Positions 1 to 3,374 of a stretch of 4,002 nucleotides of DNA are shown here, piece by piece. The stretch is from a virus (Duplodnaviria > Heunggongvirae > Uroviricota > Caudoviricetes): the IMG/VR virus record IMGVR_UViG_3300029476_000064. The stretch is one strand, 5' to 3'. Position 1 is the stretch's first letter. Each line of letters begins with the position of its first letter. The position numbers and the translations under genes are program-made. Below the pieces are notes generated by a model that saw only the letters and a list, made by a program, of their open reading frames with translations, did no database searches and was not told where the DNA came from.

Positions 1-636
1 GTTGCTGACGGGCGACTCGGAAATTTTTGGCGAAGAATCTAGGGCTGGCGCGGTCTGCATGGTGGTGGGCGACTCGGCTTTTTCGGCACCCTGAAGCATG
101 GCGTCGCGGCATCCGTCATACGCTTCTTTCATAGCATCACGCACCCATCCGACAGGTTTCTGCTCAGTCAACTCACACCATTTCTCGAATGTGGGCACAG
201 ATACCGGAACTGGCGGTGCTGCATAAAGCGCCTGACAACTCCAGCCAGACCAGTGAGCACCCTCCGCTCTCTCATCATCTTCAGGGCGAACAAGCGTGAC
301 TTCGCTCGGGTGTTTCCTGTGTGACCACAGCCAGGCTACGGTTTCGGCATTGGCTGGCTCTGGCGGGGCGGAGTAAAAATACTCATCCTCAATCCCATCA
401 ACGGGCTTTGAGAAGCCGATAAAATCACCATAATGCCAAGGATAGGGGCCGTATGGCTCAGAGGTCACACGACGCCACCGGTGAATGGCAGGCTCCGCTT
501 CGAGCGATGCCAGCGCGATACGCAGTGCCGCCAGCGTGTTGCTGTCGCCTTCGTCCAGACCGAACGGGATTTCATCTCTGGCTGCTTCCATGTCGGCAAT
601 TTTCTGCTGCAGCCATTGTTTGGTAATAGTGCTCAT
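1..636 (-). CDS. Hypothetical phage protein, 3' end beyond window (at least 211 aa visible)
   Basis: My own translation of the minus strand is open from 636 down to position 1. ATG at 636..634 is preceded by an AAGGAGAGG Shine-Dalgarno and overlaps the upstream stop (ATGA at 636..633). N-terminus reads MSTITKQWLQQKIADMEAARDEIPFGLDEGDS. Not in the ORF track, presumably because it is incomplete. I do not recognise the family. Confidence 0.55.
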   Translation of the reverse strand, partial: MSTITKQWLQQKIADMEAARDEIPFGLDEGDSNTLAALRIALASLEAEPAIHRWRRVTSEPYGPYPWHYGDFIGFSKPVDGIEDEYFYSAPPEPANAETVAWLWSHRKHPSEVTLVRPEDDERAEGAHWSGWSCQALYAAPPVPVSVPTFEKWCELTEQKPVGWVRDAMKEAYDGCRDAMLQGAEKAESPTTMQTAPALDSSPKISESPVSN

Positions 637-902
637 GATGCCTCTCCTTTACCGGATGCGGCGGCGATCAGCTTCTGCGCCTGCTGAATGTCAGGATTGC
701 CTGCAATCATCACTTCTGGCGCGTCACAGTCACCGCCAAGGTCAAGAATGCGCTCATGTCCGGTACGCAGGCAGGATTTGTATCCTGAAACCGTCTGCTT
801 GAGCGATTCGGTCAGCACAGCAATCCTCTGGTCTTTGGCTTCCAGCTCATCCAGCAGCGCCAGCACTGTGGCTGGGTTGGCTGCGGAGTTCAGCGCGTTC
901 AA
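633..902 (-). CDS. C-terminal segment of a small hypothetical protein; 89 codons from TTG at 902, probably the downstream part of a gene interrupted by an in-frame TGA
   Basis: ORF track entry starts at a TTG with no Shine-Dalgarno upstream. It is in the same frame as the 38-codon ORF at 930..1046, separated only by a TGA at 932..930 and nine sense codons. Stop at 635..633 overlaps the next ATG. Confidence 0.4.
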   Translation of the reverse strand: MNALNSAANPATVLALLDELEAKDQRIAVLTESLKQTVSGYKSCLRTGHERILDLGGDCDAPEVMIAGNPDIQQAQKLIAAASGKGEAS

Positions 903-929
903 GGCAGTGATATCTGCATCAAGCTGAGT

Positions 930-1046
930 TCATTCTGCCAGTGAGATATCGAAAATGTCATCAGGCGGCATAACACTAAGGCGCTCATGTGCACCAACTG
1001 CTGCCTCAGCGATTTCACGTAATGCGCGTTTGTCGATGTTGCTCAT
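930..1046 (-). CDS. Small ORF, 38 aa (MSNIDKRALREIAEAAVGAHERLSVMPPDDIFDISLAE); likely N-terminal part of the interrupted gene continuing to 633
   Basis: ATG at 1046..1044 with GGAGGA about 7 nt upstream; ATGA overlap with the stop of the 76-aa ORF. Ends at TGA 932..930. Below the ORF-track length cutoff; translated by hand. Confidence 0.4.
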   Translation of the reverse strand: MSNIDKRALREIAEAAVGAHERLSVMPPDDIFDISLAE

Positions 1047-1273
1047 TCTTCATCCTCCAACTCAGATACGGCGTCCATTACATCTGAGCCGCGAATGGTT
1101 TCGAATGCCACACAAGCCATTTCAAAGCACAGGCGCTCATGCGGGTGCGGAGATTGCCAATACTTGAAGCCAGGACGATGCGAATAGCCCTGCATCGCAT
1201 AAAACTCTCCGGCCAATTCAATGGCGGCATCCACCAGTTCACGGTTTGTCATTGGTTTGTCGATGTTGCTCAT
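1043..1273 (-). CDS. Small acidic hypothetical protein, 76 aa
   Basis: ORF track. ATG at 1273..1271 with AGGAGG 7 nt upstream; ATGA overlap with the upstream stop. Begins MSNIDK and carries an acidic C-terminal tail (SELEDEE). I do not recognise the family. Confidence 0.55.
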   Translation of the reverse strand: MSNIDKPMTNRELVDAAIELAGEFYAMQGYSHRPGFKYWQSPHPHERLCFEMACVAFETIRGSDVMDAVSELEDEE

Positions 1274-1470
1274 TGGGCGGCCTCCTGGATTAACTTTTCG
1301 AGAATGGCATCAAGGGCTTTCCGTTTTCCGATATACCCGCCACCAACCCACTCTCCACGAAGCAAGGCGTAATATTTCCCGTCGTCTTCGTGATACGGTC
1401 CTCGGATAGACCAGTCGGTTGTGATGGCGTCGATAGCCTTTTTAGTTTCTGCGAAATCCATCATGCTCAT
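1270..1470 (-). CDS. Small hypothetical protein, 66 aa (MSMMDFAETKKAIDAITTDW...)
   Basis: Internal ATG of the 85-aa track ORF at 1470..1468, preceded by GGGGGAGGG and forming an ATGA overlap with the ren stop. The longer start at 1527 would overlap ren by 60 nt and is less likely. Confidence 0.5.
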   Translation of the reverse strand: MSMMDFAETKKAIDAITTDWSIRGPYHEDDGKYYALLRGEWVGGGYIGKRKALDAILEKLIQEAAQ

Positions 1471-1760: not shown

Positions 1761-2448
1761 ACACTTGCTCCTTTCAGTCCGAACTTAGCTTTGATTTCTG
1801 CGATCTTCGCCAAAGCCTGTGCACGATTTAAAGGTCTACCGCCCATGACAGGAAGTTGTTTTACTGGTTCAGGTATCGCCTCACCACGGTTAATTCGCGC
1901 GGTCATACAGGTCAGCTCATCGGCAGCTTTACGCCGTAATTCCGCGTCAGTCAGCGCATTGGCCCGCATGTTCTGGTACAGGTTGGTAACCAACCAGTAG
2001 TGCGCGTTTGATTTCCATGGATAAGACTCTGCGTCCGGATACAGGCCACGCTTCCGGCAATACTCGTAAACCATATCAACCAGCTCGCTGACGTTTGGCA
2101 GTCCGGNNNNNNNNNNNNNNNNNNNNNNNNNNNNNNNNNNNNNNNNNNNNNNNNNNNNNNNNNNNNNNNNNNNNNNNNNNNNNNNNNNNNNNNNNNNNNT
2201 TCCATCGTGGTGATCCCGTTTTCCCGAAAAGCCAGAACCCACTGGCGACGGATTTCGTTCACTTCGTTCTGGTCACGGTTAGCCAGGCTCGCCGGGAAAG
2301 TTGCCAGTAACTGGCTGAACACACCGTTGATGATCTGCGCTACCTGCTGTACCTGCGGCTTTTCGTCGTACTGTTCCGGCATGTTGTTGGCGATCCGACG
2401 CATCTGCTCACGGTCAAAGTTAACCATCTGTGCGGCGATGTTTTTCAT
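1757..2448 (-). CDS. P: Replication protein P (DnaB helicase loader), lambda-like; coding sequence interrupted by an N run at 2107..2199
   Basis: N-terminal track ORF (MKNIAAQMVNFDREQMRRIANNMPEQYDEKPQVQQVAQIING...ITTME) and C-terminal track ORF (GLPNVSELVDMVYEYCRKRGLYPDAESYPWKSNAHYWLV...GLKGASV) both match lambda P as recalled. The two track ORFs are in different frames because of the N run. ATG at 2448..2446 overlaps the O stop. Confidence 0.85.
2107..2199. other. Run of 93 N (gap or masked sequence) inside the P gene
   Basis: Seen directly in the sequence. The flanking P reading frames are out of phase across it, so 93 is probably not the true length. Confidence 0.95.
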
Positions 2449-3374
2449 AGATCCACCCCGTAAATCCAGTCTGTGTTTGTCAGGTCGAGTTTTGGTTTGC
2501 TGGCTGTCACGCCTGCCTGTTGCTTGTTACGGTTGATTTCGAGTTGGGTCCACTTATCGCGGAGTTTGGCCGGACTTAGCACGTTACCGGACCAGAAGTT
2601 GTCCTGGCATGCCCAGCGGAACAGCACGCACATGTCGCGGTGGTTACGTCCGTCACGTTCACGCATCAGGCGGATATCGTTAGCCCACCCTGCAAAATTC
2701 GGTTTTCTGGCTGATGGCGCGATGGTCTTCACCATGTCAAACATCCACTCTGCGGCGGTCAGGTCTTCTGCTGTCCCCCACCTGCTGCCGCTCTGAATTG
2801 CAACATCTGGTTTCTCCACAGGAAGATCGTTTTCTGGTTGGTCAGAGGATTCGCCAGAATTCTCGGACGAAAAAGGTTTTATATTGTCTTTTGTTAGTTT
2901 GTCTTTTGTGTTTACCTGATTCGGGTAAACGCCTTTACCTGATTTGGGTAAACTTTTCTTACCTGATTCAGGTAAATTTACCTCTTTCAGGTAAACTTTA
3001 TTTTTCTTACCTGATTCGGGTAATGTTGACCATTCACTGACCACATTATTAATGCCGATATTCCGCCCGCTCTGAATAAAAATCCCACGCTTTACCAGAA
3101 CACTTTTTGCAGCAGAACACTTGTGCGGCAATATCCCGGTCAACTCGGAAAGTTGCTCGTTGCTCACCCAATCCAGTTTTTTATTAAAGCCATATGTTTT
3201 GCGCATGACAGCCAGGAAGACCAGAAGCTGGTGCTGTGTTAATCCGGCCAGCATCACAGCTTCCAGCAACTCATTTGCAATGCGCGTATAACCATCATCG
3301 AGATCTGCCACATTACGCTCCTGTTTGGCAAAGTTACCTCTGCAGAAGTTGAGTATTTTTGCTGTATTTGTCAT
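2445..3374 (-). CDS. O: Replication initiator protein O, lambda-like C-terminal domain with a divergent N-terminal iteron-binding domain
   Basis: The 309-aa track ORF has a first ~27 aa and a C-terminal ~125 aa (SRWGTAEDLTAAEWMFDMVKTIAPSARKPNFAGWANDIRLMRERDGRNHRDMCVLFRWACQDNFW...TNTDWIYGVDL) that match lambda O as recalled. The middle differs. AGGAG Shine-Dalgarno upstream; origin iterons lie inside the gene. Confidence 0.9.
   Translation of the reverse strand: MTNTAKILNFCRGNFAKQERNVADLDDGYTRIANELLEAVMLAGLTQHQLLVFLAVMRKTYGFNKKLDWVSNEQLSELTGILPHKCSAAKSVLVKRGIFIQSGRNIGINNVVSEWSTLPESGKKNKVYLKEVNLPESGKKSLPKSGKGVYPNQVNTKDKLTKDNIKPFSSENSGESSDQPENDLPVEKPDVAIQSGSRWGTAEDLTAAEWMFDMVKTIAPSARKPNFAGWANDIRLMRERDGRNHRDMCVLFRWACQDNFWSGNVLSPAKLRDKWTQLEINRNKQQAGVTASKPKLDLTNTDWIYGVDL
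2875..2911. other. AT-rich region next to the iterons (candidate DNA-unwinding element of the origin)
   Basis: The stretch GGTTTTATATTGTCTTTTGTTAGTTTGTCTTTTGTGTTT is strongly AT-rich and lies immediately promoter-distal to the iterons, as in lambda ori. Confidence 0.5.
2912..3023. repeat. Replication origin iterons: five copies of a 17-bp dyad-symmetric repeat TTACC-N7-GGTAA inside the O gene
   Basis: Copies at 2912-2928, 2935-2951, 2959-2975, 2978-2994 (variant TTACCTCTTTCAGGTAA) and 3007-3023. They sit in the O linker region, the same place lambda carries ori, but the repeat sequence differs from the lambda iteron. Confidence 0.8.

What the first reader, a model, noticed from the sequence alone, without database searches (positions are those of the whole stretch)
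1028..1274. 20-bp direct repeat covering the start codons of two adjacent small genes
GTTTGTCGATGTTGCTCATT on the plus strand occurs identically at 1028-1047 and 1255-1274. On the minus strand it encodes the shared N-terminus MSNIDK of the 38-aa and 76-aa ORFs, each preceded by a GGAGG Shine-Dalgarno. This points to paralogous genes or to a recombination linker used for module shuffling at gene starts.
Basis: seen in the sequence. Interest (0 to 1): 0.45.

Follow-up and report, generated by a model that had tools for sequence, protein, structure and literature searches.

The report
Shared gene-start cassette for phage gene shuffling
The 20-base repeat is two copies of a roughly 32-base "gene-start cassette" (ribosome-binding site, overlapping stop/start, first six codons) found in many enterobacterial lambda/P22-like prophages between unrelated genes, and it looks like a crossover point that lets these phages swap small accessory genes.

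Summary
GTTTGTCGATGTTGCTCATT occurs exactly at 1028-1047 and 1255-1274 (0 of 200 shuffles gave two copies). Each copy covers an ATGA stop/start overlap and the codons MSNIDK, with GGAGG 7 nt upstream.

The genes are not paralogs. The "38-aa ORF" is the head of an Ead/Ea22-like pseudogene with an internal TGA at 930-932. The 76-aa gene belongs to an unrelated family whose core starts at Met8 and whose first 3-8 residues vary among homologs.

The repeat is the core of a cassette spanning -13 to +18 (consensus AGGAGGCCGCCCA|ATGAGCAACATCGACAAAC). It occurs in at least 120 IMG/VR contigs, in phages including P22, ST64T, ES18 and Gifsy-1/2, and in several enterobacterial genera. Every phage copy sits at a gene start.

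- Flanks are unrelated beyond sharp edges at about -13 and +19.
- Codons 2-6 are almost free of synonymous change (4 of 535), against 32% for codons 8-11.
- 65 upstream and 49 downstream gene clusters form 138 combinations.
- 79 locus pairs are at least 97% identical on one side and unrelated on the other.

Best explanation: a conserved boundary sequence used for homologous-recombination shuffling of accessory genes. This is a known kind of element. The crossover mechanism is inferred, not shown.

The parts
1255..1286 (-). Start cassette, copy A, canonical form: AGGAGGCCGCCCA|ATGAGCAACATCGACAAAC. It supplies the last codons (..EAAQ*) of the upstream 66-aa gene, the SD, the ATGA overlap and codons 1-6 of the 76-aa gene.
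   Evidence: It matches the consensus of 100 non-redundant contexts. GGAGGCCGCCCA is the commonest upstream half (39 of 100).
1028..1058 (-). Start cassette, copy B. The 20-nt core is identical to copy A. The upstream half is replaced by the 76-aa gene's own tail (GGAGGATGAAGA, ..LEDEE*), which keeps GGAGG at the same 7-nt spacing. It starts the Ead/Ea22-like pseudogene.
   Evidence: D4, 84% over 31 nt.
1043..1273 (-). 76-aa gene (WP_000065088 family, phrog_4132, function unknown) bracketed by the two cassette copies. The family core begins at Met8 (MTNRELVDAAIELAG..).
633..1046 (-). Ead/Ea22-like gene, a pseudogene here (in-frame TGA at 930-932).
1270..1470 (-). 66-aa hypothetical gene whose last four codons (EAAQ) and stop are encoded by cassette copy A.
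   Evidence: Homologous upstream genes are joined through the cassette to at least 4 different downstream genes.
619..636 (-). Second cassette type (ATGAGCACTATTACCAAA, MSTITK) at the start of the next gene. It is not part of the reported repeat but appears to be the same kind of element.
1..636 (-). EaA-like accessory gene, running off the window (268 aa in SF-468).

Best explanation
The two 20-mers are copies of a conserved start cassette of about 32 bp. It comprises an SD (GGAGG), 7 nt, an ATGA stop/start overlap and the codons MSNIDK, and it is native to Ead/Ea22-like accessory genes of enterobacterial lambdoid and P22-like (pro)phages. The cassette encodes both the tail of whatever gene lies upstream and the head of whatever gene lies downstream, so a crossover inside it yields two intact, translationally coupled genes.

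Proposed mechanism: when two such phages or prophages meet in one cell, homologous recombination within the 20-32 identical bases reassorts everything upstream with everything downstream. The likely enzymes are phage Rad52-like annealases such as Red-beta or Erf, or host RecA. In this window the unrelated 76-aa gene carries the cassette at its own start, probably acquired once by fusion at codon 6/7. It is followed by a second copy at the start of an Ea22-like pseudogene, which makes it a cassette-bracketed, exchangeable unit of 227 bp.

Shown: the conservation pattern, the sharp edges and the reassortment. Inferred: that crossovers occur in the cassette, and which enzymes act.
For: (1) All 132 exact copies in the first scan lie at a gene start in an ATGA overlap.
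(2) In 100 non-redundant contexts ascertained only on the 20-mer, mean top-base frequency is 0.36-0.37 upstream of -13, 0.82 at -13 to -2, and 0.51 with a codon-like pattern after +19.
(3) In a scan ascertained on the protein sequence MSNIDK[QR]ALRE, 107 unique contexts show 4 synonymous changes in 535 codons for codons 2-6. Codons 8-11 show about 32% non-modal synonymous codons.
(4) The 174 usable junctions fall into 65 upstream and 49 downstream clusters forming 138 combinations, with 11 four-gamete squares. Upstream partners span about 15 unrelated Pfam families, all ending in ..AAQ.
(5) 56 pairs are at least 97% identical over 300 nt upstream and below 40% downstream, and 23 pairs show the reverse. 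The first mismatch is at +19/+20 in 37 of the 56, and at -4 to -15 in all 23.
(6) Window-specific comparisons, given as upstream / cassette / downstream identity: versus L077, 93/97/18%; versus L083, 36/97/90%; versus L088, 33/100/86%; copy B versus L059, 25/79/92%.
(7) The 76-aa gene with the MSNIDKP head lies behind at least 4 different upstream genes and before 3 different downstream genes.
(8) Homologs without the cassette show where it was grafted. DUF4752 ends ..MFRQE|KANGSKAND* in L262 but ..MFRQE|AAQ* in cassette loci.
(9) Tandem cassette-gene-cassette arrangements exist for 5 different inner genes, including eaf-ead of phage P22.
Against: No recombination event was observed directly. 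The predicted precise deletion of the 76-aa gene between the two copies was not found in 5,426 complete E. coli genomes. No presence/absence pair for a bracketed unit was found.

20-32 bp is short for efficient homologous recombination. Recombination alone does not explain why the cassette resists mutation, so some nucleotide-level constraint such as translation initiation may also act. Counts of contexts are not phylogenetically independent. The cassette is present in only about 190 of 5,426 complete E. coli genomes.
Confidence: 0.7

Rival explanations
1. The cassette is conserved because it is an optimised, portable translation-initiation and translational-coupling signal (SD, spacing, ATGA, A-rich unstructured first codons), or the binding site of a regulator. 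The mosaic joints arise by illegitimate recombination followed by selection for working joints. Under this view recombination in the cassette is incidental.
For: The element contains exactly the parts of a coupled initiation region. Six consecutive genes here are joined by 4-nt overlaps. Predicted unpaired probability is somewhat higher at 0 to +19 (0.58) than in the flanks (0.45) over 109 contexts. Nucleotide-level constraint beyond the protein level needs some explanation.
Against: Translation signals do not normally require identity at every synonymous site, and the accessibility gain is modest. Illegitimate joining would scatter the breakpoints, yet most are flush with the 20-nt core. The same 32 nt recur between about 65 x 49 partner types. 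No Rfam family, promoter or terminator lies in the cassette.
Confidence: 0.2
2. The two genes are paralogs from a tandem duplication, and the 20-mer is the last undiverged remnant.
For: The first six codons are identical and there is a weak 10/18 N-terminal match.
Against: There is no similarity beyond residue ~18. The genes belong to different families: PF13935 versus phrog_4132. Homologs of the 76-aa family have unrelated or absent N-terminal extensions. The same 20-mer heads dozens of unrelated genes in other phages.
Confidence: 0.03
3. The cassette is a target or landing pad for a dedicated enzyme, for example free-standing HNH homing endonucleases encoded in the same regions. Breaks made by the enzyme would drive gene conversion of neighbouring accessory genes.
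For: HNH_3/AP2 endonuclease genes are among the upstream partners. HNH endonucleases are annotated next to cassettes in several E. coli prophages and phages. An HNH gene begins with the second cassette type. In phage epsilon34 an EaE N-terminus is fused to an HNH homing endonuclease (PMC2629481).
Against: Only 2 of 54 upstream clusters are HNH genes. Most cassette loci, including this window, show no endonuclease nearby. The cassette has no palindromic or structured site. No cleavage data exist.
Confidence: 0.05

Closest known systems
Short conserved boundary (linker) sequences at mosaic joints of lambdoid phages (Susskind and Botstein 1978 modular theory; Clark et al. 2001, HK620), as cited in PMC2327257 and PMC3029335
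   Same: A short sequence conserved among otherwise unrelated neighbours, located at gene boundaries in lambdoid phages. It is proposed to serve as the site of homologous exchange that reassorts modules.
   Different: I could not read Clark et al. 2001, so I cannot say whether this particular cassette was listed there. Here the element is also a complete coupled translation start that contributes codons to both neighbouring genes. It shows near-absolute synonymous-site conservation across genera.
[quoted passage not shown]
   Same: A repeated short regulatory cassette flanks small non-essential ORFs in hyperplastic regions. Recombination between copies inserts, deletes or replaces genes. Direct repeats bracket single ORFs, as the 76-aa gene is bracketed here.
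   Different: PeSLs are transcription signals in intergenic DNA of virulent myoviruses. This cassette is a translation signal inside overlapping coding sequence of temperate lambdoid phages. No promoter or terminator was detected in it. Mini-circles have not been looked for.
Relaxed homologous recombination by phage Rad52-like recombinases (Red-beta, Erf, RecT) between phages and defective prophages (PMC3945230, PMC2327257)
   Same: It provides the enzymology that could use short or imperfect homology. In P22-like prophages the cassette lies just downstream of the erf/rad52-ssb-abc genes.
   Different: Those studies used homologies of hundreds of bp. Activity on a 20-32 bp island has not been tested for this element.
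Integron gene cassettes (attC/attI)
   Same: Small promoterless genes are each bounded by a recurring site, which allows mix-and-match arrays.
   Different: Integrons use a tyrosine recombinase and a structured, imperfectly palindromic attC. Here there is no integron integrase and no palindrome in the cassette, and the site lies in coding sequence.
Ead/Ea22-like protein family (Pfam PF13935; lambda Ea22, P22 Ead)
   Same: The second gene of the window is a member. The cassette is the usual start of this family, and the family is known for high sequence diversity and a coiled-coil region (PMC7093339, PMC10834534).
   Different: The papers read here describe protein-level domain diversity. They do not mention a nucleotide-conserved start shared with non-Ea22 genes, and a full-text search for MSNIDK or the DNA string found nothing.

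Membership tests
Conserved boundary/linker sequence of lambdoid phage mosaics | A short sequence conserved between genomes whose flanks on both sides are unrelated | tested here: met
   Top-base frequency is 0.82-1.0 at -13 to +18, against 0.36 upstream and 0.51 downstream, in 100 non-redundant contexts.
Conserved boundary/linker sequence of lambdoid phage mosaics | Located at a gene or module boundary | tested here: met
   132 of 132 copies sit at an ATGA stop/start overlap. The 22 copies in genomes of other genera behave the same way, apart from 3 degenerate or chance cases.
Conserved boundary/linker sequence of lambdoid phage mosaics | The same sequence joins different partners on each side (reassortment) | tested here: met
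   65 x 49 clusters form 138 combinations with 11 four-gamete squares. 79 recent one-sided identity pairs have the switch at the cassette.
Conserved boundary/linker sequence of lambdoid phage mosaics | Recombination actually takes place within the sequence | not testable with these tools
   This needs crosses or sequencing of recombinants. The predicted deletion product was not found in complete E. coli genomes.
Paralogous gene pair | Detectable similarity along the proteins beyond the shared start | tested here: not met
Ead/Ea22-like family (PF13935), for the gene holding the 38-aa ORF | Match to the family profile above the curated cut-off | tested here: met
   The repaired 137-aa product scores 83.1 bits against a cut-off of 27, E=3.7e-23. 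RefSeq annotates it as an ead/Ea22-like pseudogene.
T4-type PeSL cassette | Sigma-70 early promoter followed by a terminator stem-loop | tested here: not met
   No promoter-like or terminator-like site overlaps either copy. The element works like a PeSL but is not one.
Integron attC site | Imperfect inverted repeats forming a folded recombination site, with an integron integrase nearby | tested here: not met
   No inverted repeat involves the cassette. No integron integrase appears in the 9.8-kb annotated context.
Known RNA family | Match to an Rfam covariance model | tested here: not met
   The only hit in the window was a sub-threshold chance match elsewhere.

The most novel reading that the evidence does not exclude
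Lambdoid and P22-like phages may have a general start-cassette system. At least two nucleotide-frozen translation-start cassettes exist (MSNIDK and M[ST]TITK), plus an internal frozen block (ALLDELEA). Together they would act as standardized connectors, so that accessory genes in both the early-left 'ea' region and the region after the replication genes behave as a shared, freely recombining pool. Cassette-bracketed genes such as the 76-aa gene or P22 eaf would move as units, possibly through excised circles as with T4 PeSLs. The freezing of synonymous sites would then reflect selection for, or transmission bias towards, exchangeability rather than protein or translation function.
Probability: 0.2. 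Interest if true: 0.7.

Novelty: new member of a known kind. Interest (0 to 1): 0.5.

Why it matters
Two views of phage mosaicism compete. One holds that it arises mainly by random illegitimate joining followed by selection. The other holds that it arises by homologous exchange at conserved linkers. [quoted passage not shown]

This cassette is a well-populated, sharply bounded example. It joins dozens of partner genes on each side, it shows recent exchanges, and it is present in laboratory phages such as P22. That makes the linker model directly testable by crosses with wild-type and synonymously scrambled cassettes.

There is also a practical point for annotation. Genes starting with this cassette are sometimes given wrong starts, as with eaf and ead in the original P22 record. 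Short ORFs such as the 38-aa one can be recognised as fragments.

Tried and rejected
- Paralogy was rejected.
- Chance was rejected.
- Assembly artefact was rejected. The region is 100% identical over 1.8 kb to four complete E. coli chromosomes.
- The precise deletion product, with the 66-aa gene fused through one cassette to this Ea22 gene, was sought. All 25 full-length hits in complete E. coli genomes were two-piece and still contain the 76-aa gene.
- A structured RNA or known RNA family was sought. There was no Rfam hit and only a modest accessibility increase.
- No promoter or terminator lies in the cassette.
- No inverted repeat involves the cassette.
- The function of the 76-aa, 66-aa and neighbouring proteins could not be assigned. 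Pfam, NCBIfam, PADLOC and PDB sequence searches gave nothing useful.
- Single-linkage clustering of downstream proteins collapsed the mosaic Ea22-like proteins into 8 clusters. It was replaced by greedy clustering of the 40 residues next to the cassette.
- Clark et al. 2001 could not be read. Full-text searches for the peptide or the DNA string found nothing.

Full report
**Observation.** The 20-mer GTTTGTCGATGTTGCTCATT is present exactly at 1028-1047 and 1255-1274. No other copy exists at up to 3 mismatches, and none of 200 shuffles gave two copies. On the minus strand each copy reads A-ATG-AGC-AAC-ATC-GAC-AAA-C. In each case the ATG overlaps the stop codon of the preceding gene (ATGA), and GGAGG lies 7 nt upstream. 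With mismatches the repeat extends to 31 nt at 84% identity, spaced 227 nt apart.

**Context.** The window is part of an E. coli lambdoid prophage and is 100% identical over 1.8 kb to strain SF-468 and three other complete genomes. All genes lie on the minus strand, in this order: cII, O (with ori iterons), P, ren, a 66-aa gene, the 76-aa gene, an Ead/Ea22-like gene and a 268-aa gene. From P onwards each gene is joined to the next by a 4-nt ATGA overlap.

The 38-aa ORF is not a gene. It is the first 38 codons of the 137-codon Ead/Ea22-like gene (633-1046), which carries an in-frame TGA at 930-932. RefSeq marks it as a pseudogene with an internal stop. In strain NCTC9112 the codon is GGA and the gene is intact. 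The repaired product matches Pfam PF13935 with E=3.7e-23.

**Not paralogs.** BLASTP of the two products aligns only the first 18 residues. The 76-aa protein has no Pfam or NCBIfam match and hits phrog_4132. Its 70 homologs share a core starting at Met8 (MTNRELVDAAIELAG...). Before that they carry unrelated extensions of 3-8 residues (MSKQP, MNQEP, MEKET, MAAKR and others) or none at all. In one homolog's locus (L262) the conserved Met itself sits in an ATGA overlap with an upstream DUF4752 gene. The MSNIDK head is therefore a graft onto this family.

**What the repeat is.** In all 132 occurrences it lies at a gene start with the ATGA overlap.

- **Downstream genes.** What follows codon 6 is very diverse. 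Most are Ead/Ea22-like variants, but clearly different proteins also occur.
- **Upstream genes.** The preceding genes belong to many unrelated families, including DUF977, HNH_3 endonucleases, Lar, DUF5448, DUF4752, DUF4406, GmrSD_N, DUF7446, DUF551 and wHTH proteins. Nearly all end in ..(E/G)AAQ, which is encoded by GGAGGCCGCCCAATGA.
- **Conservation profile.** In 100 non-redundant contexts ascertained only on the 20-mer, the top-base frequency is 0.36-0.37 up to -14. It jumps to 0.66-0.95 at -13 to -2. After +18 it falls to a codon-like pattern in which third positions vary.
- **Upstream-anchored scan.** A scan anchored on the upstream half (GGAGGCCGCCCAATG) was followed by the exact downstream half in 57 of 116 hits. 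Most of the rest came from unrelated GC-rich phages.
- **Synonymous sites.** A scan ascertained on the protein MSNIDK[QR]ALRE with fully degenerate codons gave 107 unique contexts. Codons 2-6 used the canonical codon in 105-107 of them, which is 4 synonymous changes in 535. Codons 8-11 had about 32% non-modal synonymous codons.

The element is thus a nucleotide-conserved cassette of about 32 bp (-13 to +18) and not merely a conserved peptide.

**Distribution.**
- It occurs in about 190 of 5,426 complete E. coli genomes, with 1-3 copies per genome.
- It occurs in species representatives of Enterobacter, Citrobacter, Pseudocitrobacter, Trabulsiella, Lelliottia, Pluralibacter, Apirhabdus and Candidatus Erwinia dacicola.
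- It occurs in 97 phage records, including P22, ST64T, L, epsilon34, epsilon15, ES18, ST64B, Gifsy-1/2, Sf101, mEp213/237/390 and HK225.
- In P22-like prophages it lies in the early-left 'ea' region, just after the recombination genes. In this window it lies in the early-right operon after ren.

**Reassortment.**
- The 174 junctions with usable flanks fall into 65 upstream and 49 downstream clusters forming 138 combinations. Of these, 35 upstream and 31 downstream clusters have two or more partners (up to 9), and there are 11 four-gamete squares (a coarser clustering is).
- Among all pairs, 56 are at least 97% identical over the 300 nt upstream and below 40% over the 300 nt downstream. Another 23 pairs show the reverse.
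- In the first class the first mismatch is at +19/+20 in 37 pairs and never beyond +45. In the second class the nearest mismatch lies at -4 to -15.
- For the window, identities are given as upstream / cassette / downstream. Copy A versus L077 is 93/97/18%, versus L083 36/97/90% and versus L088 33/100/86%. Copy B versus L059 is 25/79/92%.
- The 66-aa gene family is joined through the cassette to at least 4 different downstream genes. The 76-aa gene with the MSNIDKP head lies behind at least 4 different upstream genes and before 3 different downstream genes.

**Anatomy in the window.** Copy A (1255-1286) is the canonical cassette. It encodes the EAAQ tail and stop of the 66-aa gene and the head of the 76-aa gene. 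Copy B (1028-1058) has the identical 20-nt core. Its upstream half is the 76-aa family's own tail (..LEDEE), which happens to carry GGAGG at the same spacing.

The 76-aa gene is therefore bracketed by direct repeats 227 bp apart. The same cassette-gene-cassette arrangement exists for four other inner genes: P22 eaf, which precedes ead, two other small genes and one Ea22-like gene.

**Mechanism.** What is shown: a sharply bounded, nucleotide-frozen island that contributes codons to both neighbours and separates freely reassorted flanks, with recent one-sided identities switching at the island.

What is inferred: crossovers occur inside the island by homologous recombination. The probable enzymes are phage Rad52-like annealases or RecA. 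These are known to act on short or diverged homology in lambdoid phages (PMC3945230, PMC2327257). Any such crossover preserves both reading frames and translational coupling.

A further inference concerns origin. The first graft of the cassette onto the 76-aa gene would have been a rare fusion at codon 6/7, because all MSNIDKP members share the same joint. Once grafted, the gene could spread by cassette-mediated exchange.

A direct-repeat deletion of the 76-aa gene is predicted but was not seen in 5,426 genomes.

**Rivals.** A purely functional explanation, as a translation-initiation or regulator site, may account for part of the constraint. Accessibility is slightly raised (0.58 against 0.45). 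However, that explanation accounts neither for the flush breakpoints nor for the number of partners. No Rfam family, promoter, terminator or palindrome is involved. A homing-endonuclease link is suggested only by occasional neighbouring HNH genes.

**Comparison with known systems and novelty.** The kind is known. Short conserved boundary sequences were proposed as sites of homologous exchange in lambdoid phages by Susskind and Botstein (1978) and by Clark et al. (2001), as cited in PMC2327257 and PMC3029335. Repeated PeSL regulatory cassettes shuffle ORFs in T4-type phages (PMC2839356).

This cassette meets the sequence-level criteria of a boundary sequence. It works like a PeSL but is not one, because it has no promoter or terminator. 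I found no description of this specific cassette, but I could not read Clark et al. 2001. I rate it a new, unusually well-documented member of a known kind, of moderate interest.

Noticed in passing
window 619-636 (-), start of the 268-aa gene: A second start-cassette type, ATGA[GC]CACTATTACCAAA (M[ST]TITK), preceded in most contexts by GAGGACTAACCC. It was found in at least 120 IMG/VR contigs and 65 non-redundant contexts, with conservation limited to about -12 to +19 and diverse sequence after it. P22 eaA starts with it.
   Followed up: partly
window about 811-834 (-), codons ALLDELEA of the Ea22-like gene; 90 contexts in related loci: The internal Ea22 motif ALLDELEA is also conserved at the nucleotide level. 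The modal codons GCG CTG CTG GAT GAG CTG GAA GCC are each used in 90-100% of 90 contexts not ascertained on it. This suggests a further recombination anchor inside these mosaic genes.
   Followed up: partly
L287 (phage P22, AF217253) 2657 and 3013: P22 carries two tandem MSNIDK cassettes, 356 bp apart, at what look like the true starts of eaf and ead. The original annotation uses a start 12 codons upstream for eaf and a different start for ead.
   Followed up: partly
window 930-932 (-): A nonsense codon (TGA, against GGA in strain NCTC9112) inactivates the Ead/Ea22-like gene. Because the genes are chained by ATGA overlaps, it may also reduce coupled translation of the downstream 268-aa gene.
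   Followed up: partly
window 2907-3025: There are four to five copies of a ~20-nt iteron (TTTACCTGATTCGGGTAAAC and variants) inside the O replication gene. This is the lambda-type origin of replication (D1/D2).
   Followed up: no
window 2107-2199: A run of 93 N interrupts the P gene in the window. The same region is complete in the identical E. coli SF-468 record.
   Followed up: no
L014, L043 (genes starting MSTITKKQRA.LRMKFGGRCAYCG); upstream partners in alignment A2: Free-standing HNH endonuclease genes occur both as upstream partners of the MSNIDK cassette (HNH_3/AP2, 2 of 54 clusters) and as genes that start with the second cassette type.
   Followed up: no
L183: A variant of the 76-aa gene start reads ..MSNIDKPMTNQ in one frame, followed by MTNRELV... 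This looks like a small duplication or frameshift in the start region, where GACAAACC occurs twice.
   Followed up: no
L268 (metagenome bin contig CAVGKZ010000067.1): One exact copy of the 20-mer starts an ORF (MSNIDKLMADGTYSNLSKRELLQISRQRAKLEKNLGSIADLTRLPSALFV) that has no overlapping upstream gene or cassette-like upstream half and does not look Ea22-like. I did not identify it. It may be a chance occurrence outside the phage context.
   Followed up: no
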